Shown piece after piece: positions 1,149 to 45,250 of a stretch of DNA of 64,000 nt. How positions within the stretch are numbered: the first letter of the stretch is position 1; each line of letters starts with the position of its first letter. The stretch lies in the sequence record PQ015379.1, one strand, 5' to 3'. Under the pieces are notes generated by a model. That model did no database searches. It was given only the letters and a program-made list of their open reading frames with translations, and was not told the origin of the DNA. Both the position numbers and the translations under genes were made by a program.

Positions 1149-2279
1149 ATGGCACAAGACCTCAGTTTCATCAAAAAGATGACGCCGGAACAGGCTGCGA
1201 AATACTACAAAAACCGGAAGAGCACCTATCGCCGGTTGCTGTCGAAATTCACCAGCCTGCTGCGTTTCTTCTTTGGCAAATCGTTCCGTTCGAACGTTGC
1301 CACCGCTTCCGAAGTGAAGGTGCGCGAAGTCCGTGATGGTTCTGGTGGTGGCGGTAGTTCCGCTGGCTATGGCCTGTCGGTTCAAAAGCTGAAAATTCCG
1401 GGCAAACGCCAACTGCAAAAGAACCTCGATGCCCTCGAAATGCGCGGCGCCATTGACGAACTCGATGCGATCATCGACCAGTGCAGCGCTACCGAAAACG
1501 CTGGCATGAAAGCGCTGGTTAAAGACATGATCGCCAACCGCAACGCGCTGGCCGAAGTCTACACCGAAGCCCTGCATGCCATGTCGGAAATGTCCGAGAA
1601 TTTCATTCCGGATGAAGTGGGCGATCTGTTCAAACGCATTCAGAAATACTTCGACAGCATGGAGAAAAACCATGTCGAAGCGCGTGGCGAAACCGACGAA
1701 AACGAAGACGAACTGGCCTACTACATCAACGTAGGCACCAAAGACGGCGGGATGGATTTCGTACTGAACTGCGATATCACCCACTGGCGCAACGTCACCG
1801 AAGGTTTCCACAAGGCGCTGTGCGTCGTGGTCACTGTTCGCGTTGAGCCGAACGAATCTGCATTCTCGTTCAAATCCTACGTGAACATTCTGGATCGCGT
1901 GGCCCTGCCGTACCTGTACAACCTCGGTTCGGAAATCACTGGCGAAAACACTTCCGCCGTCGCGAAAAACTTCGTGAAAAACATCGACCGCGAAATCGCT
2001 CGCCACAACGTGGTGCTGTTCGCCACCAAGGCCGATCTTAACCTCGATGCCACCGAAGTGCAGACCCGTCTGTCGAAAATCGAAGGCGTGTCGGGCGTCG
2101 TGGTGGAACCGAATGAAGTCGTTCTGGAATTCCCTGATGACAATCGCGAAATCCAAACCGAAGTTATGAAAGTGCTGGGCAACCTGCGTGAAGTAAAAGC
2201 GCTGGTGAAGAAAGGCTATACCCAGTCGCTGCGTAACATCGACCTCAACGTTCATTCCTACAGCCTCACTCTGAAGTAA
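1149..2279 (+). CDS. Hypothetical virion protein (376 aa)
   Basis: Abuts the previous ORF; contains NVATAS motif shared with head proteins. Confidence 0.75.
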   Translation: MAQDLSFIKKMTPEQAAKYYKNRKSTYRRLLSKFTSLLRFFFGKSFRSNVATASEVKVREVRDGSGGGGSSAGYGLSVQKLKIPGKRQLQKNLDALEMRGAIDELDAIIDQCSATENAGMKALVKDMIANRNALAEVYTEALHAMSEMSENFIPDEVGDLFKRIQKYFDSMEKNHVEARGETDENEDELAYYINVGTKDGGMDFVLNCDITHWRNVTEGFHKALCVVVTVRVEPNESAFSFKSYVNILDRVALPYLYNLGSEITGENTSAVAKNFVKNIDREIARHNVVLFATKADLNLDATEVQTRLSKIEGVSGVVVEPNEVVLEFPDDNREIQTEVMKVLGNLREVKALVKKGYTQSLRNIDLNVHSYSLTLK

Positions 2280-3184
2280 TGCACGATCACATTGTCATGC
2301 CGCTGGACTTTCGTCTGTCGGCATGGCCAAAAGGCGGCGATAACTACGTTACGACTTACAACACTGATCGCTACCTGATCGATCTGAAAATGGTCCTCGA
2401 TTATGTCGAAGAGTCCCTGAAGGGCACGCCGATGGCGTTCATTTTCAAAACGTCTTTCACGCTGGTGAACCTCTATACGATGTACACCGATCACAGCGTG
2501 GGATTGTGCGACAGTCCACCGAAAAATGTGATGCGAACTGGATTGGTTTTCACGTTCGCTCGCACGATTCGTCAATACGACAATACACAAAAAGCCGTTC
2601 ATTCCACGTGGATGCGCGGCTATACGTGCATTTGGGGGACTTCCGATAATCAATCCGCCGATTACATCAGCATTTCGATCCCGCTAAACATCCTGACCCG
2701 TGCGCGCATGCAGCAGATGATGGATCGTGATCAGCGGTTGTTTTACGAAATTGCAGGTGGCTACACGAAGGCGATTATCAGGCAGCAAATTGATTTCAGT
2801 GGTGGCGTTGACACGACTGCTGCGAAGCTGCTTTATCAGAACATTCCGCGTGCGATGTTTTACACGTCGATGAATGATTGGAAATACGTTCTGGATTTCT
2901 GGAAGCGTATGCCTGATCTGCTGCACGTGGACTGGTCGCCGAAATTCATCGAATATTACGTGCGGTTCATCGCACCTAATCTGCCGATGCGCCAGCGCAG
3001 CAAGTATTACGCACTGTATCGGGAACAAGCGCAGGATCAATTGCGTGAATTCCTGTTGCGTTATGTGCAGAACCAAATCGAACCCGAGGAAGCTGGTCTA
3101 GCCGCCCTGTTACCCTTGGAAGAAAACGCGCTACACGATATCGAGACGCTGGTTAGCCAGCTATCGCAAGGGGTTGTCCAATGA
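2279..3184 (+). CDS. Hypothetical protein (301 aa)
   Basis: TAATG stop/start overlap with the upstream ORF; no recognised motif. Confidence 0.7.
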   Translation: MHDHIVMPLDFRLSAWPKGGDNYVTTYNTDRYLIDLKMVLDYVEESLKGTPMAFIFKTSFTLVNLYTMYTDHSVGLCDSPPKNVMRTGLVFTFARTIRQYDNTQKAVHSTWMRGYTCIWGTSDNQSADYISISIPLNILTRARMQQMMDRDQRLFYEIAGGYTKAIIRQQIDFSGGVDTTAAKLLYQNIPRAMFYTSMNDWKYVLDFWKRMPDLLHVDWSPKFIEYYVRFIAPNLPMRQRSKYYALYREQAQDQLREFLLRYVQNQIEPEEAGLAALLPLEENALHDIETLVSQLSQGVVQ

Positions 3185-4398
3185 GTGTTTACGAAGGCAC
3201 TACTTGCACGATCACCGAAGAGTTTTTCGATGAATTCGACGACCCGGTAATTCCCACGGAAAACACCCCGGCCCCGTTCGTTCGATTATTCGATACCGAC
3301 AAATCGGTGATTGCCGAGGTTTACGCCAAGCCATACACCACCAAGCCCGGCCACTGGATTGCTGATCTGCCGATTCCGAATATGGATCTGCGCGATGCTG
3401 TGGAATTGGTCGCGAAGTGGAGTTTCGAATCGGACACGGGCCGCTATCAATCGACCACGAAAATTCTGGTTGAACCTGCGACCCTTGGCCGGGAATCCGA
3501 CATTGTGGTTATTTGCGGTCGTGATACGCGCATGCAGGTTACGGTGCCGATCACGTACAAACCGCCTGTGGCCCCGATCAAAGCCAATTTGGCCCGTGGT
3601 ATTGCGGCCAAAGAAGGTAAGCCCGGTGACAAGCTGACTGTTTCGCTTTTTGACAACAACAAAACAGTTTTCAACGACTGGGATGTTGAGGATCAGGCGA
3701 TCAAAGTCGAAAGCATGAAAAAGCGGACGGTTATCGATATGCCTGCAATCATGGGTACGCCGCAAATGGCGCCGCTCACGATGCTGGTTGACCACACCCC
3801 AAAAAGAAAGCTGGCGAAAACCACGCTGACTTACAAGGTGTGGGCGATTACCCCGCAAATCCTCATGGCTTCCCGCCAGCTTGAGGATTATATCAACCGG
3901 GCGCGGGTTGCGAACATCATTCCGGAACTGGAATACACGCAATCCGATATCATGGAATATTTGGCACGCGGCCTGTCGTTTTTCAACGGGTTGCAGCCGA
4001 ACATTACCAACTTCACCGGCACCAACATGCAAGGGCCGCTGATGGATGCATGGTTGACCTGTAGCTGCATTTACGCCCTCGGTTCACAGAACTTGGCTGA
4101 AGGCAGCTTAGCATTTGATTTCGGGGGTCAAACCGTTAGCTTGAACGTTGACCGTACCCCTGCCCTCGAATCGGCTTTGGGCCGGATCGATGCGCAAATA
4201 GAATCGCAAGTTAAACCGCTGAAAAAACTGTTGGGTCGTGCCGGTGTGTTGGGCGGTGACGGATCAGCAGGCGGATCGTTCATTGATTCCAGTCGTGCTT
4301 TCGGGATCTTGGGCATTTCGAATACCCCGATGACCCGTTTGCCGGGCTATGCGGGGCGTGGCCAGCAGGCTGGCGGATTCTTCCGCAATTTCTTCTAA
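3181..4398 (+). CDS. Putative neck/head-tail adaptor protein (405 aa)
   Basis: ORF is clear. C-terminal helical region followed by a short beta hairpin (GGQTVSLNVDRT..LESALGRI) resembles adaptor proteins; function is tentative. Confidence 0.4.
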   Translation: MSVYEGTTCTITEEFFDEFDDPVIPTENTPAPFVRLFDTDKSVIAEVYAKPYTTKPGHWIADLPIPNMDLRDAVELVAKWSFESDTGRYQSTTKILVEPATLGRESDIVVICGRDTRMQVTVPITYKPPVAPIKANLARGIAAKEGKPGDKLTVSLFDNNKTVFNDWDVEDQAIKVESMKKRTVIDMPAIMGTPQMAPLTMLVDHTPKRKLAKTTLTYKVWAITPQILMASRQLEDYINRARVANIIPELEYTQSDIMEYLARGLSFFNGLQPNITNFTGTNMQGPLMDAWLTCSCIYALGSQNLAEGSLAFDFGGQTVSLNVDRTPALESALGRIDAQIESQVKPLKKLLGRAGVLGGDGSAGGSFIDSSRAFGILGISNTPMTRLPGYAGRGQQAGGFFRNFF

Positions 4399-4420
4399 AC
4401 CAACGAATTCAAACAATTCG

Positions 4421-4427
4421 TAATTTA
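4421..4427 (+). promoter_or_regulatory. TAATTTA putative late promoter motif
   Basis: Intergenic, 30 nt before ATG 4458. Confidence 0.55.
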
Positions 4428-4457
4428 ATCAATACAACCCTCTGGAGATTCTCCCCA

Positions 4458-5309
4458 ATGGCATTCGATACTTCCAAGGCCAAAAGCGCGCTGGTTACTT
4501 CCGGCGAAACCGCCGCGACCAAAGTGCACATCCGTGAAGCCTTCCCAATCGACGACCGCTTCATGCGCGTTGTTGCCGTCGCTTCCGCTGGCGCCACCAA
4601 AGAACAAGTTTTCAACGGGATCAAAGCCCAATTCAAGGGCATTACCCCGATTCACGGTTCGTTCGTTTCGCTGGCCGCTGAACCGACCCTGCATCACTTC
4701 GAAGGCATCGTCGGCGTCGTTTCCGAACGCGTTGTGGTGAACGATGCGAACCGCGAAAACTTCAAAGCTGTCGCTGCCAACATGTACATGGACCAAAGCG
4801 AAAATCTTTGGACCCTGCGCAAAACCGCGACCGGTGAAGTAATGGTGAAATCGGTTTGCGCAGACGACACGCTGGTGATGCAGCAACTGCTGGCCTGCGC
4901 GACTCACGACCACAACGATTTCAACAATAAAAACCTGCACCTCGAATCTTCGGCGCACCGTGCCATGGTTCAAGGCGGCGATCTGATTGCCTACGTTTCG
5001 CAGCAATCCTGCGATCTGCAAATGGGCATCGCCTGCGCCAGCATCGACAACGAAGACGGTTCCCCGACTACCGACATTTACGTCACTCGCCCGAACGGCG
5101 CCAGCGAAACCGTTCACCGCGAAATGATCGTGGTTACTGCGGGCACCGTGGATCTGGAAGACGAAGAGGCCAAAGACGCCAACGAAATCGCCACCGCTTC
5201 GGCTGCCGACGTTGACCGCTTCGCTTCGTTCTACAGCCGCGTTTTCGCCCGTCGTCCTGCGTTCTTCGACGACTTCATGACTCGCGTTCGCAGCTACGTT
5301 TTCTTCTAA
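4458..5309 (+). CDS. Hypothetical head-associated protein (283 aa)
   Basis: GGAG RBS; AVAS and ATAS motifs; flanked by promoter motif and terminator. Confidence 0.75.
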   Translation: MAFDTSKAKSALVTSGETAATKVHIREAFPIDDRFMRVVAVASAGATKEQVFNGIKAQFKGITPIHGSFVSLAAEPTLHHFEGIVGVVSERVVVNDANRENFKAVAANMYMDQSENLWTLRKTATGEVMVKSVCADDTLVMQQLLACATHDHNDFNNKNLHLESSAHRAMVQGGDLIAYVSQQSCDLQMGIACASIDNEDGSPTTDIYVTRPNGASETVHREMIVVTAGTVDLEDEEAKDANEIATASAADVDRFASFYSRVFARRPAFFDDFMTRVRSYVFF

Positions 5310-5328
5310 GCAACTGCGGGAAATTCAG

Positions 5329-5352
5329 AAGGGGGCCATGCGCCCCCTTTTG
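5329..5352 (+). terminator. Rho-independent terminator
   Basis: AAGGGGGC-CATGC-GCCCCCTT plus TT. Confidence 0.7.
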
Positions 5353-5384
5353 TCGGTTTGGTGTGACATTAGGGGACGCTTTTC

Positions 5385-7196: not shown

Positions 7197-7603
7197 GCAT
7201 CGTAAACGCGCTGGATGGTGTGAATTCCATTCTGGCCATCATCAAAAAGGGTGACGCAACACCCGAAAAGAAACTGGAAACCATTCTCGAAGTGGCGGAA
7301 GGTGTGCGCAACGATATTCAGGACGTGGCCGATAAAGCCTACGCCGATTACATCGACGAATTGCCGCCACCAACTTTCGACATGGAACAGGCAATCGCTG
7401 ACCTGTTGGAAAAATTCCGCAAGCAGGAATTCGCCAACCTGTTCTACCACTACGACAAGCAAGTTTTCGCCGATGAAGCCGACCCACACATTCGCCTTGC
7501 CATCGCCACCGCGTTGGTGAAATTCGCGATTGAGCAACAGAAGGCGCCGAGCGCCGTGTGGTCGTACATCATCCAAAACGAAGGCGTAATTTCCGAGGCC
7601 TAA
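7193..7603 (+). CDS. Hypothetical protein (136 aa)
   Basis: GGAG RBS, ATGA overlap with the upstream stop. Confidence 0.7.
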   Translation: MSIVNALDGVNSILAIIKKGDATPEKKLETILEVAEGVRNDIQDVADKAYADYIDELPPPTFDMEQAIADLLEKFRKQEFANLFYHYDKQVFADEADPHIRLAIATALVKFAIEQQKAPSAVWSYIIQNEGVISEA

Positions 7604-7605
7604 GC

Positions 7606-10600
7606 ATGAACCGTATCAACTGGAATAAAACTCCGTTGGCGCAGCAAATGCACCAGCGCCGTCAACAGCAGGAAGCGGCCATGGCCCTCGATGCGTACGC
7701 GGCCCTTGCCCGTGCCAATGCTGACGACGATGAAGACAGCGACGAAGTAGACGATAGCTCTTCCGAGTTCGTGAAATCCATTCGCACCATTTCTTTGGAA
7801 CCGGCGCGCAATCTGGAATACGAGTCTTTCTTCTACCCGAAAAGAGAACGTAACTTCCTCGTTCCGATCCTCGAATCGCTGTCCGACGTGACGGCCAACA
7901 TCAACATGTTTTTCCGTTTCATGCGGCTGATGATGGGCCGGGCCAATAGCCTGTCCAGTGCTTCGCCGGAACAAATCGAAAACATTGCCTCGCAAATTCA
8001 CGTGCAGGTTTTCCAATCGAAGCGTACCAAAGGTTCGATTGAGCAGGACACCGTGAATTTCATTCGTGCCTCGCGCCGTACGGCCCACACGTTCCACAAC
8101 GTGTACCGTTCCAAGCGCTACAACGAAGGCATCGATATCGTGCTGATGGGTGCCGGTGCTGACCCTGAAAAAGAAGGTCTGCCAGCCCCGTATTTCGGTG
8201 TGGAAGATTTCCAGCTGGGCCGTTCGGAATATCTGTTCGAACACAACGATCATCCGATGACCGAATCGCGTCGTCGCGGTGCGTGGCAATCGCCGGTCGG
8301 TGAGCGCATTCTGGCCGCCGCTCGCGAAATCCACATGTTCCTGTTTGGCACCCTCGCCAGTTCCGAACGCATGATTCACCGTGGCGTTCCGCTGAATACC
8401 AACTTCAGCGATATCGAACAAATTTGGGTGAAAAACACCGGCATCAAAATTCCAACCGCTGGCGAAATCGTCACCGATATGGTGGTGGCCAACCCGTTTG
8501 CTGACCAGTTCCTGCAAATCGAACTGATCAAGCAGCCGTCGCGCAAGGTCAAAGAAGTCGTCAAGAAAATTCGCGAAGATGCTGCACGTCCGGGTTATGG
8601 TCAAGAACCACTTAGCCCGAGCGCAGTAAACGCGAAAATCAACGAAGCGTTGAACGGTGAAAATCCGAAAGCAACTCCGGAATCGGAACTGCTGAACCTG
8701 ACGCTGCGTACCTCGATTCGTTTCACCCTCGAATCGGATATCGCGCACTTCGTGACGCAGACCCCGGACAACGAACGTCCAAACCTGACCCGTGCGAACA
8801 GCTGGTTCTCGCTGTACATTGCACAGGTTCTGCGTGCGAAAGTTTCTGGCACTGGCAAGGCCTACAAAATCTCCAACGCCGCCGCAATCAAAATGGAGCA
8901 CATCCCGCGCTATGCGACTTCGGCCACCACGCTGAAACGCATCCCGGCCCTGCGTGAACAACACGGCTACGTCGTGGAGCGCACCAAAGGCAACGCGGAA
9001 AACATGTACATTTTGCCAAACGGCACGATGGGTGTTCGTCCGTCGATTGACGCGCTGCAAAAAACCACGCTGGCCGAAGATTTCGAGAAAATTTCCGAAG
9101 AACTTCTGGAACTGTTGAGCCGTCACGAAATTCCACTGGCCGCATTCCAAGAAAACTCTGGCGCCGCCTACTGGCCGTGGGTCGAAGCTAACGATCTGGA
9201 ACGCATGCAGCAGCTGGTAAAAGAACTGCACAGTTTCGACGGTTGTTCGCTCGGTTTCGACTGGGACTTCGGGATCAACATTCAGGCCACCAGCACACCG
9301 GGCCGCACCGTTACCAGCACCTCGGTTGGTTCTGTAACTCCGGATTCGCTGGCCATCGCTGACTGGCTCGGTTTCAACCTTGCCAAAGAAGGCGAAAAAC
9401 CGATGAAGCGTTCTTTCGCGCAAGCGATGTACACGCTGAATCACCACGAACACACGGCCTACGCATATTCGCAGGCTGAAAAAGTTTACGGCGCTGCACC
9501 TGATCCTGTTGCGTTTGCGGATTCGTCCATGATCGGCAACCTGATCGATCTGTACATGCGTCTCGCGTACCTCGACAACAAGGCACCGAAATTCCCTGAA
9601 ATTCTGAGCAGCGCAATGCGCGCCCTGAATTACGAGAAACTGCCGAGCGAGCCGGGCTTCGATTACAGTTCCAAGTATTTCGAATCGGTCAAGCCTGACG
9701 GCACCCTGCCTGACAACCGCAAAGGTAACGTGCGCGGTATCATCCTGTCGCTGTTCAAGACCACGCTGGATCTGGCGTCGGGCGCGCAGGGCACGCACCT
9801 GTGGAACGAAGTTTTCGAAAGCCTGAAATCCGGTGACAACAATCCGCGCATGTCGGAAGTCAGTCTGGAACTGGAAAACAACGAAAACTATTTCAACAGT
9901 TCGATTTCGACCACTGCTGAATTCACCCGCCTGTACAAGTATTTCGGCGGTCAAGTGTTCAAGCAGATTCTGGACGCGATCAACTCGGTTGAAATCGAGC
10001 ACTTCGGTAATGCCCGCGCCGGTCAAGCACAGGTGCAGATGGGTGAAATTCCGGATTATCCGGGCCAGCAATTCACCGTCACGCTGGATCTGAAGCCGAA
10101 CGCCGTTCTGTACCGTGACGTTCTGCCGTTCGCCGTGATGCTGGGCAAATACGCACCGAACCACGAAACCATTTTCGCCGAAGCGCAGGAACAGGTCGAA
10201 TCCATTCAGCCTGATCCATCGTTCAGCGCCGAAGATATTCAGGTGCCGGGCCTTGTGTCGGAAGATCGTGCGATTTTCCCACACCAAGAATCGGTGCAAA
10301 GTTCGCTGCGTAAGAAAAATCCGCCGACCTTCGCAATTCTCGCACTGGCCCCCGGTGGTGGTAAAACCGGTCAAGGTGTGATTGACGTTGCGTGCCTGAT
10401 GAAAGACATGAAAGAGGCTGGCACCGTGGTTCGTCCGCTGGTGATTTGCCCTAACGGTCTGATCAACACGTGGTGCGAAGAACTGAAGTATTTCCAAGGC
10501 GCAAACTGGAACGCGTTTCCGATCAGTTCGGACGTGCTTTCGCGCTGGACAGGCAAGAACGCGCCGGGTGAAAAATTCCTGACCGATCTGGCCACCAACG

Positions 10601-36132: not shown

Positions 36133-37239
36133 ATGAAAATTGCCGTGTACGCAATTGCAAAGAGTGAACAACACAACGTAAAAGATTGGCTGGAAAATGT
36201 GAAGGATGCAGACGGCATCTTTGTGCTGGATACCGGCAGCAAAGATCAGACCATAGGCCTGCTGGAAGCGGGCGGCGCCGTAGTGAACCAAATGCACACC
36301 GGTAAAACTTTCCGGTTCGATCACGCCCGCAACGAGGCTATGTCGCTGGTTCCGGAAGACTACGACGTTTGCATTTCTCTCGATTTCGATGAACGTTTGT
36401 CCCCCGATTGGCGGGAAGTAGTCGAAACTCAATTCACAGAAGAAATGACGGCAGCCAATTACACGTTGGTGTACGCGCACGACGATCAAGGGAACATCAC
36501 ACTTTCCTATCCGCGCCTCGCTATTCACCGCCGCAATTGCGCTACATGGCAATACCCGGTTCACGAAATTCTGGTTGCACACGATGCAGGTCAAAAGCCG
36601 ACGCTGCCAATCATGGCCGTACACTATGGCCAAGAAAAGGAAGCCGGGCATTACCTCGATTTGCTGCAACTCGCGTTGTCGGAAAACCCGAACGACGCAC
36701 GCAACATCCAATATCTGGCGCGTGAATATTATGCGCTGGGCAATTACCAGATGGCGACCACGCTGTACCAACAGCACGTCGATATCGAAACTTCGGCGCC
36801 TTTCCGTGCCGAAAGCTGCATGCGTATTGCGCGCATGAGCCAAGAATTCTCTACCGCCGAATGGTGGTATCGCCACGCGATTCAACACTGCAACAACATC
36901 CGCGAACCGTACTGCCATTTGGCCCAGTTCTATTTCGGCCACAAGCGTTACGAACATGCGATTGCTTCGATCAAAAGCGCGCTCGATTTCGATAAACCTG
37001 ACTACGACATGATCTACGAAGATATGTATTATTCGGGGCCGTGGATCGATCACATGCTGATGGCCTGCTACCAACAAACCGGGCAATTCCGCAAAGCCGG
37101 GGTGCATCGTGATAATTTGTTAAGTATGTACGCCAATGGCAGCATTCCGGTCGATATTGCACGTGACGTTGTGCAGTTGAACCGCTCTATTCAGGAACTT
37201 TTCTATGATTATTGCACTAGCGTGGGCGTTCAAGGATGA
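36133..37239 (+). CDS. GT2-family glycosyltransferase with C-terminal TPR repeats (368 aa)
   Basis: IAKSE..VLDTGSKDQT..FDHARN..SLDFDE (DxD); YLAREYYALGNYQMA-type TPR helices. Confidence 0.88.
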   Translation: MKIAVYAIAKSEQHNVKDWLENVKDADGIFVLDTGSKDQTIGLLEAGGAVVNQMHTGKTFRFDHARNEAMSLVPEDYDVCISLDFDERLSPDWREVVETQFTEEMTAANYTLVYAHDDQGNITLSYPRLAIHRRNCATWQYPVHEILVAHDAGQKPTLPIMAVHYGQEKEAGHYLDLLQLALSENPNDARNIQYLAREYYALGNYQMATTLYQQHVDIETSAPFRAESCMRIARMSQEFSTAEWWYRHAIQHCNNIREPYCHLAQFYFGHKRYEHAIASIKSALDFDKPDYDMIYEDMYYSGPWIDHMLMACYQQTGQFRKAGVHRDNLLSMYANGSIPVDIARDVVQLNRSIQELFYDYCTSVGVQG

Positions 37240-38428
37240 CGATCATGTGCAGGAAATGGCGACGTGGCAAAAACGCCTGAGCAAAGCTGATTTTCTCAAG
37301 CTGTCGAAAAGCCAACGCGAACGTTACATCAAGTTGTACCCGCATTCGTCGCACCGTTTCCTGATGGGCAAAGGCGATCCCGACAACGTAGAAGGCGGCC
37401 AGCAGATGAAAAAAGCTGCGCCTGTCGGTCGTGATCGTTTCATGTCTGAAGATGAAATTCAGGAAAAACGCCGCAAGCGCGCCGAACACCTCGACACGCG
37501 GAAAGAGATTGCCGATTTCAATAAATCCAACGTTGCGGTAATCAACCCGCAATCGTTGCAAGCGCTCGATCACGTGAAAGATAGCCACCTGCGTGAAGCG
37601 TCGGACGGTATCCAAAAGAACAAAACCGAAATCGCGAAAGCCGTACAGCAACAGCAAAAGAAACTGCCGAAAATGTACGGCAAAGGGCTGCAAGCTACCC
37701 GCGACCTCGTTTCCGGGGAAACGCACCCGGATGATATGAGCACCACGCAGAAACACGCGATGCACCGTGTACTGGGCGGTATTGCAACCATGGCCCTTTT
37801 GGGGGCCGGTGTGATGGCGTGTGGTATGGCTGCTGCGCCGCTCGGTGTGTTGATGGGTGCCACGTTGTTCAACATGTGGGCCGGTTCGAAGCATGGCAAA
37901 AACCTGCGTGACGATATCGACGAATTGCGCCAAGCGCGTGAAAAACGTCGTCGTGAAGAACGCAAGTTGCAAAATCAGGCAGTTGCCAGCAACGATCAAG
38001 ACGGTGATTTGTTCACGCCGCACGAAGACGAATCCATGTCTGATGCAGATACTATCAACCTGATTCTGGATCACGTAACCGACCTGCTGAAATACCATTC
38101 AGTGAAGGATTTCCAAGAACACCGCGACGAAATGTTTGCCTCTGCATCGAATGCCCCGGATTTCCGCGATCTGGAATACATTCTGCGCTTCGCAAATTGT
38201 GCGAATTTCCAAGCGCTGGGCAAGGGTATCGCATTCGAATGTGCAGGCGGCCAACCATCGCTCGAAAAGCTTTTCCGTCGTATGGGTTATATGGTTAGCG
38301 CCAGCGAACAGGGCGAACAACGTGCCCTGCATTTCGACAACGGGAAAGGCCGTGCAACACTCGGCAATTGCGACAAAGGATTTTATATCCGCTACGACGG
38401 TGATTTCGATTACCGTACCGTTCTGTAA
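37205..38428 (+). CDS. Hypothetical virion protein with hydrophobic helical hairpin (407 aa)
   Basis: VLGGIATMALLGAGVMACGMAAAPLGVLMGATLFNMW hydrophobic stretch; MIIALA N-terminus. Confidence 0.65.
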   Translation: MIIALAWAFKDDDHVQEMATWQKRLSKADFLKLSKSQRERYIKLYPHSSHRFLMGKGDPDNVEGGQQMKKAAPVGRDRFMSEDEIQEKRRKRAEHLDTRKEIADFNKSNVAVINPQSLQALDHVKDSHLREASDGIQKNKTEIAKAVQQQQKKLPKMYGKGLQATRDLVSGETHPDDMSTTQKHAMHRVLGGIATMALLGAGVMACGMAAAPLGVLMGATLFNMWAGSKHGKNLRDDIDELRQAREKRRREERKLQNQAVASNDQDGDLFTPHEDESMSDADTINLILDHVTDLLKYHSVKDFQEHRDEMFASASNAPDFRDLEYILRFANCANFQALGKGIAFECAGGQPSLEKLFRRMGYMVSASEQGEQRALHFDNGKGRATLGNCDKGFYIRYDGDFDYRTVL

Positions 38429-38440: not shown

Positions 38441-38776
38441 ATGCTCACTTTTCTGAGTGATCCTGAAGAACGGCATTTGCCGATGCACGAACGTAAAACG
38501 GTATGGGTTTGTGATGGCGATAAACGCATTGCAACCCTTGCCGCCGTTCCAGACGAAAGCAAAAACCGTTCACACACCACTGCAATGTGGACCGCGAAAC
38601 TGCACCACAAACAGTTTGATCCATTCGACCACGATCACGAATTCGACGAAGAAAATCCGAACGTTCATGTCGCGCAATCGGAAGAGGGTCTGCTGTCGCT
38701 GAATAACCCGAATAAAATGGCAATTGCTGACGCTCGCCAGTGGGTCCGCGATCATTACACTGGAGGTAAGCAATAA
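38441..38776 (+). CDS. Hypothetical protein (111 aa)
   Basis: Strong AGGAGG RBS. Confidence 0.7.
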   Translation: MLTFLSDPEERHLPMHERKTVWVCDGDKRIATLAAVPDESKNRSHTTAMWTAKLHHKQFDPFDHDHEFDEENPNVHVAQSEEGLLSLNNPNKMAIADARQWVRDHYTGGKQ

Positions 38777-39666
38777 TGCTCGTTGACATTCGTGGTAATT
38801 CGCTGAAAAAAGAATTGCAACCGGGCCGCAATCAAATCGCTATCGCATCGGCTGGTGTGCCGTACGAAAAGCAATTCGACGAAATGGCGCTCGGTTTCAG
38901 CATGGGCACCCCGCTGGCCACCACGGAACTGCACGGCGCACGGCTCAATGAGGCCGGGGAATTGCCGATCAGTGCACAGATTTCCGGAACTGGTTTTGCT
39001 GAAACGTTGGAAGCTAACGTGTGGTTGGGTCGTGCTGCTGAATATCACGGCCTTTCCAAAAACATCAGCGACTACATTCTGGTTTCGGTTCCTGCGATGG
39101 TTACGCGGTTGCCGAATACCAACGGCGATTCGGTGGATTTGAAACAATTCACCGCGTGGAATGAACCGTGTGCACGCCTTGCCTACAAAACGTGGGAAGG
39201 CCGCCCGATGTATATCGAACACCAGCACCAACCTGAATGGGTTCGCGGTTTGATTCTCGGCACGTTCATGCGCCCGACGAAGTTCAAGAACATCGAAAAA
39301 CTGGTGATGCTGGCAGCCCTCGACCGCACCCGCGATCCGCGCCGTTGCCAACGTGTTTTGAGTCGCGAATTGAACACCTATTCCATGGGCATGATGTATT
39401 CGGCTTATGCGTGTTCGATTTGTGGGCATATTGCCGGGCGCGGTATTGGTTCGCCGTGCAGCCACACCAAACCACGTAAACCAACTTACCAATACCCTGA
39501 TGGTCGTTTGGCCTATCGTCGCTGCATGAACATTACCGGCTTCGAATTGTCGTTGCTGGAAAACGTCGGCGGGCGTTCCGGTATGGACGGTTACAAACAG
39601 GGTTACGGTGATCCATCGTACGTTTCTGCAATCGGGGATATTATCCTTGATCCCAAATCCGTCTGA
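38776..39666 (+). CDS. Prohead maturation protease (HK97/assemblin-like fold)
   Basis: NGDS..YKTWEGRPMYIEH..RGLI..YSMG..CSICG pattern; upstream of scaffold and capsid genes. Confidence 0.8.
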   Translation: MLVDIRGNSLKKELQPGRNQIAIASAGVPYEKQFDEMALGFSMGTPLATTELHGARLNEAGELPISAQISGTGFAETLEANVWLGRAAEYHGLSKNISDYILVSVPAMVTRLPNTNGDSVDLKQFTAWNEPCARLAYKTWEGRPMYIEHQHQPEWVRGLILGTFMRPTKFKNIEKLVMLAALDRTRDPRRCQRVLSRELNTYSMGMMYSAYACSICGHIAGRGIGSPCSHTKPRKPTYQYPDGRLAYRRCMNITGFELSLLENVGGRSGMDGYKQGYGDPSYVSAIGDIILDPKSV

Positions 39667-40270: not shown

Positions 40271-40291
40271 GCCCGAAATTTCTGTTTGCCC

Positions 40292-40298: not shown

Positions 40299-40323
40299 TA
40301 CATGTAGCACCAAGGAGACTGCT

Positions 40324-40686
40324 ATGGAAATGATGATCGCTTTAGCAGCCTCGCCATTGACTGATATGCACCAGCCTAAAAGCTTTGACATTCGCAGCTT
40401 GAAACACCAATTGCTCAATATCCAAGAGATTCGAAAGGGTTTGATCAAATGTGATATCAAGTACGACCATCAGGGCGACGGCAAACCGCATCACAGCGCT
40501 CGCGTCGATTTGGTTTCTGATATGGGTTCGGGTTATATCGAATTCGCCCTTGAAGAATCGAATTGGTGGTACAAGGGCGAAACGAATATTAATGGCGAAT
40601 CCACGAATTACGAAGGTTATACGGCACACCATTCGGTGCAAGCCATTTGCCGGAAGGTCCGTGGGCTGCTGCTGAAACTGCTGTAG
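40324..40686 (+). CDS. Hypothetical protein (120 aa)
   Basis: AAGGAG RBS; N-terminal MIALAASP shared with the 32579 protein. Confidence 0.7.
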   Translation: MEMMIALAASPLTDMHQPKSFDIRSLKHQLLNIQEIRKGLIKCDIKYDHQGDGKPHHSARVDLVSDMGSGYIEFALEESNWWYKGETNINGESTNYEGYTAHHSVQAICRKVRGLLLKLL

Positions 40687-40748
40687 TTTTTGATCTTTGT
40701 AATTTTTAAATGTGAGGTGAAAGCCCACAACTCTTAATGGAGTGAACC

Positions 40749-41717
40749 ATGTCGAAACGAAACTCGCGCCTGCGCGGCATCGTCGTTATGGCTGACAACC
40801 AAGAGCAAGCAGTGGAGCATTTCAGTGCTGTCGCTTCCGGCGAATATCGCGTATTGGAAAGTAAAGATGGCAAATACGCCATTGCTACCGCCAACACCGA
40901 TACGCCCCTGTTGAATCCCCTTGACGGGGAAGAAATGGTGGCCGTTCCGGAAGAGGAAAAGCATGAAATGGTCGCGACCGCATCCGCCGAAGGCGATATG
41001 GACGCGTTCTATCAAGCCTGTTCCAGCGGTTGCGGCGCACACGTTATCACGGACAGTGAAGAACTTCTGGATAAATGCCCGGCTTGCGCTTCCGACCTCC
41101 CAAAAATGGAAGACGCGAACTTGAAAAACAAACCACAACCGAAAGAAATGCTGGTTGCTGTTGCTGCCACTCGCGCCGAAGCCATCGAAGCTTTCCGTGC
41201 GCTGGCCAGCGGTAACTGCGAGACTTTCGCGGCTCAATGCGTCGATAACATGGTGCTGTCTAACCAGCCTGTGAATTTCGACATTTTCAAAGCCACCGCC
41301 GCCGAACAGGTTGCTGACTACGTGCCTCAACTGGCCGTTGCTTCCGCAATCGAAAACGGCAAAATGAAAGTGCACTATCTGGTGACTGCCTCCGATGACG
41401 GCCCGGAAATGCACATCGTCTCCAACAGCGACAAAGCGATTTTCTGCCCGGTAACTTCGATGGGTCTGGTAGACCCGGAAGTCGAATTCACCGACGAACA
41501 GAAAGCCACCGCTGCCGCCGAATTCGCCGCTACCGCTTCGGATGATGAAGACGAAGAGGAAGAGGAAGAAGAGGAATTCGAGGACGACGAAGAGGAAGAA
41601 GAGGAAGAAGAGGAAGAGGAAGACGACGGCGAAGAAGAGGAAGAAGAGGAAGACGACGACGATCTGTCTTTGGGCCTCGCTGCTGCCGGTGACAAACCAG
41701 CGAAAAAGGCGGCGTAA
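40749..41717 (+). CDS. Putative scaffold/core head protein with Zn-ribbon and poly-acidic tail (322 aa)
   Basis: CSSGCG..CPAC; ~40-residue E/D tract; AVAS and ATAS motifs; between protease and MCP. Confidence 0.55.
   Translation: MSKRNSRLRGIVVMADNQEQAVEHFSAVASGEYRVLESKDGKYAIATANTDTPLLNPLDGEEMVAVPEEEKHEMVATASAEGDMDAFYQACSSGCGAHVITDSEELLDKCPACASDLPKMEDANLKNKPQPKEMLVAVAATRAEAIEAFRALASGNCETFAAQCVDNMVLSNQPVNFDIFKATAAEQVADYVPQLAVASAIENGKMKVHYLVTASDDGPEMHIVSNSDKAIFCPVTSMGLVDPEVEFTDEQKATAAAEFAATASDDEDEEEEEEEEFEDDEEEEEEEEEEEDDGEEEEEEEDDDDLSLGLAAAGDKPAKKAA
41543..41661 (+). repeat. GAA/GAG/GAC low-complexity tract encoding poly-Glu/Asp
   Basis: Direct reading of the sequence. Confidence 0.85.
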
Positions 41718-41737
41718 AACGCAAGGTAAAACCGACC

Positions 41738-42724
41738 ATGGCTACCGCAAGTACCCAGCCGGAAACCGGCGCTGCCGCTGCTGGCACCGAGCAAATTGCT
41801 CAAACCGAACAAACCAACGTTGAACAGACCGGCGAAACCGCGACTGCCAACGCTGAAACCGCACAAACCGGTGAACAGGCTTCTGCCGTTACTACCGAAA
41901 ACGTGCAAACTGAAGAAACCCCGGTAGAAGTTTCCGCTTCGTTCGTTTCCATCGCGTCGAACGAAATGAAGGAAAATTCTGTGGATGTTAATTATGTAGG
42001 TAGCGTGCAGAACGAACCTACGTGGGTAGCTTTCCACAACGGTGTTCCTTTCGCGAAAGCTGTTGCTTCCGCCGCCGAAAACAAAGCGACTTTCGCTGAT
42101 CCATCTTTCGGTCGTGCTTTCAAAGCAATCGCCGCCGAACAAGGTGTGCAGGCTGCCATCGAGCAGCTGCGTTTCGAAGAAATCAAACCTGTTGTGCAAA
42201 TCGCGCAGGTTGTGGCCGAACAAATCCAGACCCAAGTGTCCGAACAGGGCGCCGTTCTGGCTGAAGCTTCCGCCAAAGATCAATCGGAACTCGCTGAGCG
42301 TTTCCGTGGCGCACTCGCCACCGCTGCGCACGGTATCAACACCGGTTATTTCCGTGACACTTCGAACCCGATCCTGACCGCGCTGGCTTCGACCCTCGAA
42401 TCCATCGGCCTCGAAGGCGCCGAAGATTTGCTGCAACGTGCATTCCTCGATCACTCGCCGGAATACCACGCAGCCATTTTGGCCAAAGCTGGCGAAATCA
42501 TGAAATATGATGCCGTCGTGCAAAACCAGATGGCGACTGCTGTCACCCAAATCGAACCGAAAAATGTGGTTGCGACCGCATCTTCTTCGCTGTCGATGGG
42601 CCGCCCGGTTCAACGTCCGGTGCAAGTGCAAAAACAGGAAAGCGAACTCGCTACCGCTTCGGCACAGCAGTCGCAGCCTTCCAACTTCAAATCCAAGCTG
42701 ACCGGCTTGAAACTGTTCCGCTAA
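41738..42724 (+). CDS. Putative capsid scaffolding protein (328 aa)
   Basis: Low-complexity A/T/E/Q N-terminus, helical body, three ATAS motifs; upstream of MCP. Confidence 0.55.
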   Translation: MATASTQPETGAAAAGTEQIAQTEQTNVEQTGETATANAETAQTGEQASAVTTENVQTEETPVEVSASFVSIASNEMKENSVDVNYVGSVQNEPTWVAFHNGVPFAKAVASAAENKATFADPSFGRAFKAIAAEQGVQAAIEQLRFEEIKPVVQIAQVVAEQIQTQVSEQGAVLAEASAKDQSELAERFRGALATAAHGINTGYFRDTSNPILTALASTLESIGLEGAEDLLQRAFLDHSPEYHAAILAKAGEIMKYDAVVQNQMATAVTQIEPKNVVATASSSLSMGRPVQRPVQVQKQESELATASAQQSQPSNFKSKLTGLKLFR

Positions 42725-42739
42725 TCGGAGAAATTCCAA

Positions 42740-43483
42740 ATGATCGTTGACAAATACACTCGCACTTTCAACACCGAATTCCGCGATGTTGAACCGGGTC
42801 TGGACCTGCAAGAAGACGGCCAAGCGCTGGTTTTCTCGAAAGTTCAAGGCCGCACCTACGTTCGTCCGTCGCAGGGCGTTTCTGGTGAAATCTTCGCCGG
42901 TATCTCGGTGAACCGTAACACCCCGCCGAAATTCCTGCCGAAAATCGTTGCTGGCGTCGTCGTTCCTGAAAGCGGCGTGGTTGACCTCGGTCGCCTGCCA
43001 ATCAACGGCCAAATGCTGGTGAAAGTTGACGGCGATGTTCTCGACATTTCCGCCAGCGCCCCGGTTGCGGGCAAAGTGCAAAGCGTCGGCACCAAGCTGT
43101 ATTTCTTCGCCGGTACTCCGGAATCCGCACCGGGCGCAGGCGATGCCGTTGCCGGTGATCAGGGCAAAGAACTGTTCGTGCAATTCATGTACGAACCGCT
43201 GGTTTCCGAAGCTGTGACCGTTCGTGGTGACGCGCCAATCGGCGGCCTGTCGAGCACCGAGCGTGGCCGTATCGCCGTTCTGACCCGCGCCGAACAAGTC
43301 GCCACCACCTTCTACGACGCCGCTTCCGACTGGTCCACCGCCCTGCGTCCGAAACTGGGCGTTGACGGCAAATTCACCATGTCCGGTCCGGGCGAAACCG
43401 TGAACACCGTTCTGGTTCTGCAAACCCCTGTCGAAGATGCTGCTTCGTACGGCCCGCTGGTCGTCAAAATCACCAACGCCTAA
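42740..43483 (+). CDS. Putative capsid decoration/stabilising protein (247 aa)
   Basis: Beta-rich, highly biased codons, strong GGAG RBS, directly upstream of MCP. Confidence 0.55.
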   Translation: MIVDKYTRTFNTEFRDVEPGLDLQEDGQALVFSKVQGRTYVRPSQGVSGEIFAGISVNRNTPPKFLPKIVAGVVVPESGVVDLGRLPINGQMLVKVDGDVLDISASAPVAGKVQSVGTKLYFFAGTPESAPGAGDAVAGDQGKELFVQFMYEPLVSEAVTVRGDAPIGGLSSTERGRIAVLTRAEQVATTFYDAASDWSTALRPKLGVDGKFTMSGPGETVNTVLVLQTPVEDAASYGPLVVKITNA

Positions 43484-43519
43484 GTCGGCGCCTTTCGAAA
43501 TTTTCTGGAGAAATAAAAC

Positions 43520-44626
43520 ATGTTGAACCAAATCAAAGGCGCCCGCATGGTCCTCGCTGGCACCGGTGCCCCGCTGGAAGAACTGCGCTACTCGAAAGGC
43601 GCTGAACTGGCCCTGAGTTCCGCGACCGGCGAATTCAACGCCTCTTCCACCAAGGATCTGGCGATCCAAATCGGTCGTCTGATGGACGCCGTAGGCAAAG
43701 GCATCGTCGTTCCTGAAAATCAAATCGCCACCGCTTCGAGCAAAGAGCAGCGCGAACACCGCCGCGAAATCATGCGCGAAGCCATGGCCAGCGATGACAA
43801 CTGGCAGGCACTGGGCGCCAACATCGCCCAGCAGGTTTACGAGCAGAGCGAGCGTGACGGTTTCCTGCGCAAACTTTCGCAAGGTAACACCCTGCGTCAA
43901 GGTGAAGTGCAGCGCGTTCCAATGCCTCCGCACGATTCGATGGCCGTTGTCGCCACCGGTCCTGCTGGCGTCGGCTACCAGAACATTCGCGCTCGCCAAT
44001 TCCTGCCAGCGGAATTCGAAATCATCGCGAACGTTCGCGTGAATGCGCTGGACATGGAACAGGTTTCCGGCGACCTGCTGGAGCACGCGTACAACGACGC
44101 GCTGCAATCCATCATGGTTCAGGAAGATCGCCTGTGGAAAATCGCTGCTGACGCCACCGTCGGCATGATGAACCCGCTGGAATACATCGCTGGCGAACTG
44201 ACCTCGAAAAACCTCGGTCGTCTGCGCACCGCCGTGACCGACTGGAACCTGCCAGCCACCACCGCGATCATCAGCAACGATTACTGGTCCGATATCATCG
44301 GTTCGAACGATTTCGCGACCATGCTCGATCCGATCACCAAGTACGATTTGGCCCTGAACGGTCAACTCGGTACTCTGGTTGGTCTGCAACTGCTGACCGA
44401 TGGTTTCCGTGCACCGAACCAGAAAGTTCTGGATCGTGGCGAAATCTACGTCGTGGCTGCCCCGGAATACCACGCTGCCTACTCGACCCGTGGCGGTATC
44501 CAATCCCGTCCGGTTGACTACGCGCACGAAGGTTCCACCGCCAAAGGCTGGATGCTGTCCGAAGCGTTCTCGTTCGTTCTGGCCAACAACCGCTCCGTCG
44601 TGAAAGGCAAGCGTCTGGTCCGTTAA
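43520..44626 (+). CDS. Major capsid protein (HK97 fold, 368 aa)
   Basis: Position after protease and scaffolds, extreme codon bias, HK97-type E-loop/P-domain pattern (FLRKL..EDRLW..GTLVGLQLLTD..EIYVV). Confidence 0.82.
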   Translation: MLNQIKGARMVLAGTGAPLEELRYSKGAELALSSATGEFNASSTKDLAIQIGRLMDAVGKGIVVPENQIATASSKEQREHRREIMREAMASDDNWQALGANIAQQVYEQSERDGFLRKLSQGNTLRQGEVQRVPMPPHDSMAVVATGPAGVGYQNIRARQFLPAEFEIIANVRVNALDMEQVSGDLLEHAYNDALQSIMVQEDRLWKIAADATVGMMNPLEYIAGELTSKNLGRLRTAVTDWNLPATTAIISNDYWSDIIGSNDFATMLDPITKYDLALNGQLGTLVGLQLLTDGFRAPNQKVLDRGEIYVVAAPEYHAAYSTRGGIQSRPVDYAHEGSTAKGWMLSEAFSFVLANNRSVVKGKRLVR

Positions 44627-44641
44627 TAAATCTCCGCACTT

Positions 44642-44675
44642 TCCGGATCGAAAGGAGCGCCCCTTTCGATCTGGA
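44642..44675 (+). other. Stable hairpin after MCP (no U tract)
   Basis: TCCGGATCGAAAGG...CTTTCGATCTGGA. Confidence 0.6.
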
Positions 44676-44704
44676 TTGTGTTAGAAACTTTTGGAGATTT
44701 AGCG

Positions 44705-45250
44705 ATGGATATTCAGGCACTGTTTTCGCTTGCGGCAATGTGTTGCAAAAACGGAAGAGACGAATTGGCTTTGCAGGTTCTGAAACAGGCTTGCGAATGC
44801 CCTGAATTCTCTTCGGTCCTGAACTGTTCGCTACAGCCCGCTTTGGATGCCGCCCCTGATTTCATGGGCGCTGTTCAAGGCGCGCCGGTTCCTTGCGCAG
44901 AAGGCGGCGCGGATGGGAAACTCGACGGCCTCGATTCGTTCGTGGATTATGTCGATAAACCTAGCCCCGACGTTGCCAAGTTTGGTACTGCCCCAAATTC
45001 GGAAAATTCCATCAGCCCTTCGCTGCATGGAAATGATGGTGTGGCCTTCCGGCAAATTGTCGGTGTGGCTTCCGCGATCTACGCACAAAAGCAGTATCTG
45101 GACGATGGTGAGCACATCATCCTCGATCCTCAACTATCGGCTATTGCTTCGGTCGATCTTGAACCATTTGACGACGAATCGTTGGTGGCGCGGGAATCCC
45201 CGAAAGCGAGTGAACCGCTCATTCCGGGCCGTATCAGGATCAAGCTGTAA
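44705..45250 (+). CDS. Hypothetical head-associated protein (181 aa)
   Basis: GGAG RBS; GVAS and AIAS motifs. Confidence 0.65.
   Translation: MDIQALFSLAAMCCKNGRDELALQVLKQACECPEFSSVLNCSLQPALDAAPDFMGAVQGAPVPCAEGGADGKLDGLDSFVDYVDKPSPDVAKFGTAPNSENSISPSLHGNDGVAFRQIVGVASAIYAQKQYLDDGEHIILDPQLSAIASVDLEPFDDESLVARESPKASEPLIPGRIRIKL

What the first reader, a model, noticed from the sequence alone, without database searches (positions are those of the whole stretch)
1149..45250. Recurrent A-x-A-S motif in head proteins: a herpesvirus-like maturation cleavage code?
Seen: ATAS in the 1149 (NVATASE), 4458 (EIATASA), 40749 (MVATASA; FAATASD right before the acidic tail), 41738 (MATAST, VVATASS, ELATASA) and MCP (QIATASS, residues 70-73) proteins. 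Related AVAS, AIAS and FNASS occur in these, in 44705 and in the protease itself (QIAIASAG). I saw no ATAS in the polymerase, helicase or ligase. Established: herpesvirus assemblin cleaves V/L-x-A|S and shares its fold with HK97-type prohead proteases, whereas T4 gp21 and phiKZ gp175 cleave after Glu. Inference: the 38776 protease cuts at A|S, removing about 72 residues from the MCP and fragmenting the scaffolds.
Basis: partly seen in the sequence, partly recalled or inferred. Interest (0 to 1): 0.7.

Follow-up and report, generated by a model that had tools for sequence, protein, structure and literature searches.

The report
Alanine cut-and-load code in jumbo-phage heads
A giant phage closely related to Pseudomonas phage Lu11 repeats a short Ala-x-Ala motif in its capsid scaffold, capsid leader and other head-region proteins, and a sister group of phages carries Ser-x-Ser at the same places; the motif likely marks where the phage's own head protease cuts and which proteins it loads, but no cut has been measured.

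Summary
The motif is real: ATAS occurs 8 times in 70 window proteins against 0.6 expected. The window is a Lu11-like jumbo phage. The "two scaffolds" 40749 and 41738 are one gene broken by a missing A. The core is A-x-A followed by a small residue. It fills the scaffold, sits at the capsid-protein hinge before the HK97 fold (12 of 13 close relatives), and at the portal's N-terminal junction in relatives. In the Dickeya/Erwinia clade it becomes S-x-S at the same places in scaffold, portal and an unlinked zinc-ribbon protein. It also ends a short N-terminal tag on many unrelated proteins, like T4's capsid-targeting sequence. The 38776 protein is a prohead serine protease, closest in fold to T4 gp21. 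PaBG's capsid protein loses about 20% of its mass on maturation (PMC7412058), which fits but cannot separate an Ala cut from a Glu cut. Best reading: T4/phiKZ-type head processing with small-residue specificity; herpes-like only at P1/P1'. No cut is measured. The scan reported this motif before on other DNA (e1-5377097); the lineage switch and the tag are added here.

The parts
38776..39666 (+). Prohead (capsid maturation) serine protease; invariant His149, Ser203, Glu257 (likely triad), Cys/His zinc-finger-like insertion at 213-230; AIAS at nt 38839-38850 in a poorly conserved N-terminal extension
   Evidence: PHROG 18299 head maturation protease; invariant columns in 43 sequences; model matches T4 gp21 Z 8.9, VZV protease Z 6.0, HCMV protease Z 4.8; Atlas neighbours S78/S77/S80 at 0.90-0.92; triad assignment inferred
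40749..42724 (+). One scaffold-like gene of about 658 codons, broken in this record by one missing A after 41702; 15 A-[TVI]-A-small sites in 650 aa; ATAS at nt 40974, 41529, 41741, 42572, 42650
   Evidence: frameshift; count; coordinates; both halves match one PHROG profile; its 'ATPase' label is unsupported: Walker A in 4 of 85 homologs; PaBG homolog gp82 is absent from the 14-protein virion table of PMC7412058. Scaffold role inferred
43520..44626 (+). Major capsid protein, HK97 fold, with an N-terminal leader of about 72 residues; ATAS (residues 70-73, nt 43727-43738) at the hinge
   Evidence: Residues 79-362 align to residues 7-278 of the 280-residue phage G gp27; Foldseek HK97-fold matches over about 270-300 columns; hinge pLDDT 61-63; A-x-A-small in 12 of 13 MCPs of 66% identity or more
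42740..43483 (+). Virion structural protein between scaffold and MCP (PaBG gp81 homolog); no ATAS, one weak site
   Evidence: PHROG 16710; PaBG gp81 has no such site although reported in several gel bands
44705..45250 (+). Unknown protein after the MCP; AIAS at nt 45140-45151, candidate substrate
   Evidence: A-x-A-S at the aligned place in 3 of 4 orthologs
1149..2279 (+). Unknown protein in the neck-gene cluster; ATAS at residue 51 (nt 1299-1310), candidate N-terminal propeptide
   Evidence: A-T-A-[SA] at the aligned place in 4 of 5 orthologs
4458..5309 (+). Conserved unknown protein; AVAS at nt 4575-4586 and ATAS at nt 5190-5201
   Evidence: C-terminal site is A-x-A in the four Lu11-group orthologs and S-V-S in JA11 and Y3
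32579..33871 (+). KMPT-N domain protein beginning with the short N-terminal tag ending A-L-A
   Evidence: Pfam PF20294; tag match; orthologs carry A-x-A, S-x-A or S-x-S
37205..38428 (+). Unknown protein beginning with the N-terminal tag; further internal sites at residues 259 (not conserved) and 312 (conserved)
40324..40686 (+). 120-aa unknown protein just before the scaffold, beginning with the N-terminal tag (start at 40324, after a GGAG site)
   Evidence: no Pfam family
7558..13668 (+). SNF2-type helicase of about 2,000 aa; homolog of PaBG gp202, which is in the virion; no ATAS, but homologs have an [AS]-x-[AS] site near the N-terminus; possible cargo

Best explanation
A-x-A followed by a small residue is likely the recognition site of the phage's own prohead protease (38776), which would cut after the second Ala (A-T-A|S) during head maturation. 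Shown: the motif's enrichment, its places, its conservation and its switch to S-x-S in a sister clade; the protease's fold and invariant residues. Inferred, by analogy with T4 and SPN3US/phiKZ: the protease is built into the prohead with the 650-residue scaffold; it would chop the scaffold at 10-15 sites, remove about 72 residues from the MCP (40.3 to 32.9 kDa), trim the portal's N-terminal arm, and clip a tag of about 7-9 residues from cargo proteins that the tag had brought into the prohead. P3 and P1 are the two small residues that are read (Ala/Ala here, Ser/Ser in the Dickeya/Erwinia clade, probably Val-or-Thr/Ala in the RSL1 group).
For: Window: 15 sites in 650 aa of scaffold, 3 in 1,316 aa of other head proteins, 2 in 4,998 aa of tail, 1 in 3,564 aa of non-virion proteins. 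A-x-A-S 10-15 times against 1.0-1.5 shuffled in 12 of 12 Lu11-group scaffolds, 0-2 times in 15 Dickeya/Erwinia-clade scaffolds, which have S-[EQDN]-S 7-10 times against 2.4-4.0 (60 scaffolds). Held-out test with head proteins chosen by function (MCP, portal, protease, gp81-like, neck): 13 sites in 7,856 aa against 6 in 42,133 aa of non-virion proteins in four Lu11-group genomes; the Ser form 6 in 3,816 against 3 in 21,450 in JA11 and Y3. Portal junction: A-x-A-small in 8 of 8 Ala-type phages, S-x-S-small in 11 of 11 Ser-type, background 2-3% of windows. An unlinked zinc-ribbon protein of 70-85 aa shows the same switch just before its cysteines. MCP hinge 12 of 13, against 4 of 13 for [ASG]-x-E and 0 of 13 for [IL]-x-E; the HK97 fold starts just after it. 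PaBG MCP drops by about 20% (PMC7412058); a cut at its aligned A-V-A|A removes 20.6%. N-terminal tags: 18, 26, 23, 17, 18, 16 and 12 matches in G001, Lu11, G002, G003, JA11, Y3 and NCTB against shuffled means of 3.9-5.8 (maxima 11-14), mostly A-x-A in the first three and S-x-S in the last three. PaBG virion proteins gp83 and gp202 have a site within their first 13 residues. P3-x-P1 spacing with the cut after P1 is the known rule for SPN3US (A-X-E, PMC5694885) and phiKZ (S/A/G-X-E, PMC13282480).
Against: No cleavage or N-terminus has been measured for any member I could read about. In PaBG a cut after the nearby A-R-E-E removes 20.0%, so the published mass loss does not exclude Glu, and among MCPs of 53-65% identity [ASG]-x-E is in 15 of 18 hinges, A-x-A-small in 10 of 18. 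PaBG gp81, gp191, gp213 and gp215 were each found in several gel bands, yet gp81 and gp191 have no site. Enrichment in function-chosen head proteins is weak in PaBG (2 in 1,492 aa against 7 in 10,789) and absent with these patterns in NCTB, RSL1 and Sauron; tags are not enriched in PaBG, RSL1 or Sauron. The Ser-type phages form one clade, so 11 of 11 is about one event; 3 of those 11 windows also match the Ala form. Some scaffold matches are structural (C-x-x-C-A-S, helix ends). The model draws residues 72-90 as helix, with only a short break at the site. The tag pattern was written after seeing hits and also catches signal-peptide-like starts. The protease's own S-x-S/A-x-A site before its first strand does not follow the scaffold type in six phages.
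Confidence: 0.75

Rival explanations
1. The motif is the protease's site but the bond cut is another one (after the Ser, or one residue further in Ala runs such as A-L-A-A).
For: Register comes only from analogy; Ala/Ser runs allow several registers; Ser is the commonest next residue (95 of 183).
Against: The two positions that switch together (A..A to S..S) have the P3/P1 spacing of T4, SPN3US and phiKZ; the residue after them varies (S, A, T, V, N in scaffolds; A, G, S, T, K, R, W in tags).
Confidence: 0.1
2. The motif is a binding signal for core assembly (docking on scaffold, MCP or protease) and is not cut; processing uses another site, for instance Glu as in T4 and phiKZ.
For: The tag looks like a short beta-strand docking element; PaBG's mass loss fits a Glu cut as well; Glu motifs are common in the hinge of mid-distance MCPs.
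Against: Glu motifs are not enriched in scaffolds; [IL]-x-E is depleted in Lu11-group scaffolds (0-5 against 4.8-8.2); the motif sits at leader/body junctions of MCP and portal, where cuts are expected.
Confidence: 0.09
3. A host peptidase with small-residue specificity makes the cuts (signal peptidase I also reads A-x-A; recalled), and the Ala/Ser switch follows the host, not the phage enzyme.
For: Ala-type isolates infect Pseudomonas, Ser-type isolates infect Dickeya/Erwinia (hosts); no protease activity has been shown.
Against: The phage keeps a prohead protease with invariant His, Ser and Glu beside scaffold and MCP; tags are far shorter than signal peptides and the substrates are cytoplasmic (general knowledge); the Ser-type clade has its own changes next to the catalytic Ser (Met204 to Lys, Met206 to Thr; one event).
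Confidence: 0.03
4. Compositional or structural coincidence in Ala/Ser-rich flexible linkers.
For: Linkers are Ala/Ser-rich; a few matches are helix ends or zinc-finger flanks.
Against: Per-protein shuffles keep composition and give a tenth of the count; the plain dipeptide [AS][AS] is hardly enriched; unrelated, unlinked proteins switch together.
Confidence: 0.03

Closest known systems
Phage T4 head maturation: gp21 protease (family S77), gp22 scaffold core, gp23 propeptide, internal proteins and Alt with the capsid-targeting sequence
   Same: Best fold match of the protease (5jbl, Z 8.9, 141 residues, rmsd 3.2); separate acidic scaffold with many sites; MCP leader of similar length (72 against 65 residues, PMC5694885); short N-terminal tags ending in the site on cargo, one of them an ADP-ribosyltransferase-domain protein.
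   Different: T4 cuts after Glu and leaves its portal whole (PMC5694885); here P1 is likely Ala or Ser and the portal has a site. Sequence identity 8%; no Pfam S77 match; zinc-finger-like insertion; HK97-size MCP related to phage G gp27.
SPN3US gp245 and phiKZ gp175 (family S80)
   Same: Small residue at P3 (A-X-E; S/A/G-X-E), Ser preferred at P1' in SPN3US (PMC10052503), portal and MCP propeptides, several sites per propeptide.
   Different: P1 is Glu; propeptides are mostly much longer; self-cleavage is C-terminal; unrelated phage group.
Herpesvirus assemblin (family S21)
   Same: Same fold at lower score (VZV Z 6.0, HCMV Z 4.8); Ala at P1 and Ser or Thr at P1' (PrV sites YLQA-T and VQA-S, predicted by alignment in PMC4498786); scaffold is the main substrate.
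   Different: P3 is Leu/Val in those sites, Ala here; triad Ser-His-His with an Arg oxyanion loop (PMC4498786) against likely Ser-His-Glu; herpes cuts the scaffold once near its end, here 10-15 sites plus MCP, portal and cargo.
HK97/D3 maturation protease (family S78)
   Same: Removes an N-terminal scaffold domain from an HK97-fold MCP (PMC12749128); E-x-S strand and Ser-His-Glu triad resemble this family (recalled); S78 clusters among Atlas neighbours.
   Different: HK97 has no separate scaffold and cuts after Lys (recalled); no Pfam or NCBIfam S78 match in 43 sequences.
Pseudomonas phages Lu11 and PaBG and the Dickeya/Erwinia jumbo phages (the 'Lupandier' group of PMC7412058)
   Same: Same gene order; MCP 85% to Lu11, 61% to PaBG; PaBG MCP reported processed by about 20%.
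   Different: No cleavage site or motif is given in the passages read.

Membership tests
Prohead protease / assemblin fold (clan SH) | Beta-barrel fold shared by T4 gp21 and herpes proteases | tested here: met
   VIA-align top three: 5jbl Z 8.9, 1vzv Z 6.0, 8j3s Z 4.8; Foldseek lists the same families but none at E <= 0.001; model pLDDT 72
Prohead protease / assemblin fold (clan SH) | Catalytic His ... Ser ... acid/His in that order | tested here: met
   His149, Ser203, Glu257 invariant in 43 sequences; spatial closeness could not be measured, model coordinates not available
Prohead protease / assemblin fold (clan SH) | Proteolytic activity on head proteins | not testable with these tools
   Indirect only: PaBG MCP processed (PMC7412058)
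Herpes assemblin S21 | Ser-His-His triad and Arg oxyanion loop | tested here: not met
   No invariant His or Arg-Arg after the zinc insertion; invariant Glu257 instead
Herpes assemblin S21 | Site [VL]-x-A|S | tested here: not met
   [VILT]-x-A-[SA] is hardly enriched in Lu11-group scaffolds (z -1 to 2), A-x-A-S strongly (z 8-14); it is enriched in RSL1 and Sauron scaffolds (z 5-6)
T4 gp21 S77 / phiKZ gp175 S80 | Profile match | tested here: inconclusive
   No Pfam or NCBIfam hit in 43 members; Atlas neighbours at 0.90-0.91 only
T4 gp21 S77 / phiKZ gp175 S80 | Cuts after Glu | tested here: inconclusive
   Glu motifs not enriched in scaffolds, 4 of 13 close MCP hinges; PaBG mass loss fits either
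HK97 gp4 S78 | Profile match; MCP-fused scaffold as only substrate | tested here: inconclusive
   No profile hit; one neighbour cluster has S78 on 11% of members, another on 82%; separate scaffold present here
T4-type capsid-targeting sequence | Shared short N-terminal sequence ending in the protease site on unrelated proteins | tested here: met
   enriched in 7 of 10 genomes; pattern written after seeing hits
T4-type capsid-targeting sequence | Tag is needed and sufficient for loading and is removed | not testable with these tools
   Only hint: PaBG gp83 and gp202 are in virions and have an N-terminal site; gp191 is in virions without one

The most novel reading that the evidence does not exclude
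This phage group uses one two-residue code for cutting and for loading: a tag of 7-9 residues ending A-x-A puts some 10-20 enzymes and effectors (ADP-ribosyltransferase-domain, acetyltransferase, topoisomerase-I-like, KMPT-N and SNF2 proteins) into the head for injection, and the whole code was rewritten from Ala-x-Ala to Ser-x-Ser across dozens of sites together with the protease's binding strand, while the deeper RSL1 branch keeps a Val-x-Ala form like that of herpesviruses.
Probability: 0.45. Interest if true: 0.72.

Novelty: new variant of a known kind. Interest (0 to 1): 0.52.

Why it matters
The giant-phage head proteases characterised in the papers read here cut after Glu. An Ala/Ser-specific one would show that the T4-type plan (protease, sacrificial scaffold, tagged cargo) carries over to an HK97-size capsid lineage with another specificity, and that Ala at P1 is not confined to herpesviruses. 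The natural Ala-to-Ser switch gives a ready pair of enzymes for finding what sets specificity in this fold. The tag predicts, from sequence alone, which unknown genes of these Pseudomonas, Dickeya and Erwinia phages are packaged and injected, and corrects the database label 'ATPase' on the likely scaffold. It is not a new kind of system, and the scan has met the same idea with other residues in other phages.

Tried and rejected
No whole genome is held for the window; relatives stood in for genes outside it (portal, tag cluster), so those sites are not shown for this phage itself. Pfam, NCBIfam and PDB sequence searches do not name the protease. A complex prediction of protease 45-290 with scaffold residues 270-315 gave no answer (score 0.17, mark 0.32); not used as evidence. 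S42 (N-A-S-S) rejected as a site. DNA repeat rejected. Programmed frameshift or true split of the scaffold rejected. 'ATPase' rejected. The 998-aa ORF at the scaffold position of Rctr197k holds the protease domain (E 1.5e-25), but a profile of the scaffold C-half did not match it, so a protease-scaffold fusion there is not confirmed. Genome-wide 4-mer ranking finds ATAS high in G001 but no single 4-mer in PaBG, Y3 or RSL1. A first head/tail/non-virion count included two proteins picked for having the motif; it was redone without them. In one search, 24 of 33 portals were scored; one mis-called ORF (L099) and eight outgroup portals were left out. No RNA holder listed for the region. A profile-based scan for the tag was not completed, so the tag counts rest on one pattern. 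Literature: searches gave no paper naming a cleavage site for this phage group. The two RSL1 papers (PubMed 20034649, 23394943) are not held, the Y3 paper was seen only as a reference, and the PaBG supplement could not be read; any of these may hold N-terminal data.


Full report
What the window is. Almost all genes lie on the + strand. The MCP at 43520 is 85% identical to that of Pseudomonas phage Lu11, 61% to PaBG, 45-50% to the Dickeya and Erwinia jumbo phages and 33% to RSL1; uncultured relatives at 91-95% have contigs of up to 314 kb. The order protease, scaffold-like gene, structural protein, MCP is shared across the group. The host is inferred from this likeness only.

The observation. 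Codons vary, so the signal is at protein level. The record has single-base losses in A runs: 4 of 4 runs have an extra A after 41702 and 3 runs after 28837. The first joins 40749 and 41738 into one gene, as in 11 of 11 related loci printed. Its database label 'ATPase' has no support (Walker A in 4 of 85); it is acidic, has C-x-x-C pairs, and its PaBG homolog is not among the 14 virion proteins of PMC7412058. I read it as the scaffold (inference).

The protease. His149, Ser203 and Glu257 are invariant in 43 sequences, with a Cys/His insertion between the last two. The model (pLDDT 72) matches T4 gp21 best (Z 8.9), then VZV (6.0) and HCMV (4.8) proteases; Foldseek lists these families without significance; language-model neighbours carry S78, S77 and S80. 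It is a member of the prohead protease fold but could not be filed under one named family, and it lacks the herpes Ser-His-His triad (PMC4498786, passages). The likeness of the triad to HK97 gp4 is recalled, not tested.

The MCP. Residues 79-362 align with residues 7-278 of phage G gp27, and HK97-fold structures cover about 270-300 columns, so about 72 residues are an extra leader. ATAS sits at the hinge (pLDDT 61-63; the model draws helix from residue 72 on). The hinge varies in length, yet 12 of 13 MCPs at 66% identity or more keep A-x-A-small (1.7% of windows in the core do); Glu motifs are in 4 of 13 and 0 of 13. At 53-65% identity the picture is mixed (10 of 18 against 15 of 18). PMC7412058 (section 3.2 and Table 1 read) states that PaBG's MCP loses about 20% of its mass; its 40.1 kDa MCP is listed below bands of 35 kDa. 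A cut at the aligned A-V-A|A gives 20.6%, a cut after the neighbouring Glu 20.0%: processing at about this place is shown for a relative, the residue is not. For the window the predicted loss is 18.4%.

The code follows the lineage. In 60 scaffolds, the 12 closest have A-x-A-S 10-15 times against about 1; the 15 of the Dickeya/Erwinia clade have it 0-2 times and have S-[EQDN]-S 7-10 times; PaBG-like and NCTB-like ones are mixed; RSL1 and Sauron favour [VILT]-x-A-[SA] (z 5-6). Aligned scaffold sites change from A-T-A-S to S-E-S-S or S-Q-S-S, while a few matches are structural. Proteins not used to define the patterns follow: the portal has A-x-A-small just before its conserved body in 8 of 8 Ala-type phages and S-x-S-small in 11 of 11 Ser-type (3 of which also match the Ala form), with 2 Ala and 3 Ser among 5 intermediates, against 2-3% background; an unlinked zinc-ribbon protein of 70-85 aa and the 4458 orthologs switch likewise. 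Head proteins chosen by function carry 1.65 sites per 1000 aa against 0.14 in non-virion and 0.42 in tail proteins in four Lu11-group genomes, and the Ser form 1.57 against 0.14 in JA11 and Y3; PaBG is weak and NCTB, RSL1 and Sauron show nothing with these two patterns. The Ser-type isolates are one clade, so this is one clear switch plus a few mixed lineages on an unresolved base, not many independent events. That clade also changed two residues next to the catalytic Ser, again one event.

The N-terminal tag. In relatives a cluster of genes near the portal gene, and scattered others, begin with Met, two to four mostly aliphatic residues, then A-[LVIT]-A or S-[LVI]-S. Matches number 18, 26, 23, 17, 18, 16 and 12 in G001, Lu11, G002, G003, JA11, Y3 and NCTB against shuffled means of 3.9-5.8 and maxima of 11-14; PaBG, RSL1 and Sauron have 5, 5 and 3, no more than chance. 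A-x-A to S-x-S counts are 11:0, 17:3 and 13:5 in the first three and 2:12, 2:9 and 4:8 in JA11, Y3 and NCTB. The window has 4 matches against 0.9; three are true starts (32579, 37205, 40324). The pattern was written after seeing hits and includes some signal-peptide-like starts. Tagged proteins include ART-PolyVal, GNAT, integrase/topoisomerase-I-like and KMPT-N domains; 20 of the 27 proteins scanned had no family at its curated cut-off. T4 loads internal proteins and Alt with a 10-20 residue N-terminal tag that gp21 removes (PMC5694885, passages). PaBG's virion table holds gp83 and the SNF2 helicase gp202, both with a site in their first 13 residues, but also gp191 without one. Notes of the scan on tag-plus-site codes in other phages were read before this test and may have prompted it; they are not evidence.

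Mechanism and register. The two positions that are fixed and switch together are spaced like P3 and P1 of SPN3US (A-X-E) and phiKZ (S/A/G-X-E), where the cut follows P1 (PMC5694885, PMC13282480), and the next residue varies (Ser in 95 of 183 scaffold sites). The likely cut is therefore A-x-A|small. That agrees with herpes at P1/P1' only; the architecture is T4-like. Convergence on Ala is as plausible as shared descent, and nothing here tests that. Shown: motif, places, conservation, switch, fold. Inferred: scaffold role, catalytic triad, cleavage, register, loading.

Papers: passages only were read of PMC7412058, PMC5694885, PMC10052503, PMC4498786, PMC12749128, PMC13282480, PMC5512222 and the Matilda preprint (10.64898/2026.10.21.760668). 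Ten searches found no cleavage site for this group; the RSL1 and Y3 papers and the PaBG supplement were not seen and may bear on this. The scan noted the same A-x-A-S reading on another genome (e1-5377097).

Verdict. Real feature; new variant of T4/phiKZ-type head processing with likely Ala (or Ser) specificity and a likely loading tag; confidence 0.75; interest 0.52.

Noticed in passing
window 28837, 41702, and near 54420: Single-base losses in the record split genes: tail-fibre gene 28520/28783 (extra A in 3 runs), scaffold, and tape-measure-like gene 51892/54420, which is one ORF in G001 (not checked against reads). ORFs at 59542-60468 may be affected too.
   Followed up: partly
window 7558-13668: SNF2-type helicase of about 2,000 aa whose PaBG homolog gp202 is a virion protein (PMC7412058 Table 1): a packaged chromatin-remodeller-like ATPase.
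   Followed up: partly
L036:10554 to L037:4895 (G001 118554-130895): Cluster of about ten tagged genes near the portal gene, with ART-PolyVal, GNAT and topoisomerase-I-like domains and two paralogs of 642 and 913 aa of no known family.
   Followed up: partly
L035:12322-12561 (G001): 79-aa zinc-ribbon protein with two ATAS and an N-terminal F-x-N-P-L element that resembles elements in the scaffold; labelled 'DNA ligase' in PHROG; lies next to the portal gene in Y3 and NCTB.
   Followed up: partly
window 38875-38905 (protease residues about 36-44): Before the protease's first conserved Phe, homologs have A-x-A or S-x-S (A-L-G in the window); possible self-cut or self-blocking site, but it does not follow the scaffold type in six phages.
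   Followed up: partly
L029:2234-5230 (Rctr197k): 998-aa ORF at the scaffold position begins with the protease domain; its MCP has a long Gln-rich leader.
   Followed up: partly
window 26220-27860 and 47426-49018; 49044-50120: Two tail-sheath paralogs and two tail-tube paralogs, as annotated in relatives.
   Followed up: no
window 51892-54423: Tape-measure-like protein with VgrG3-like C-terminal (lysozyme-type) and VanY peptidase domains.
   Followed up: no
L259 (G004 239307-240881): Portal gene of G004 has an internal TGA in the match; error or real not examined.
   Followed up: no
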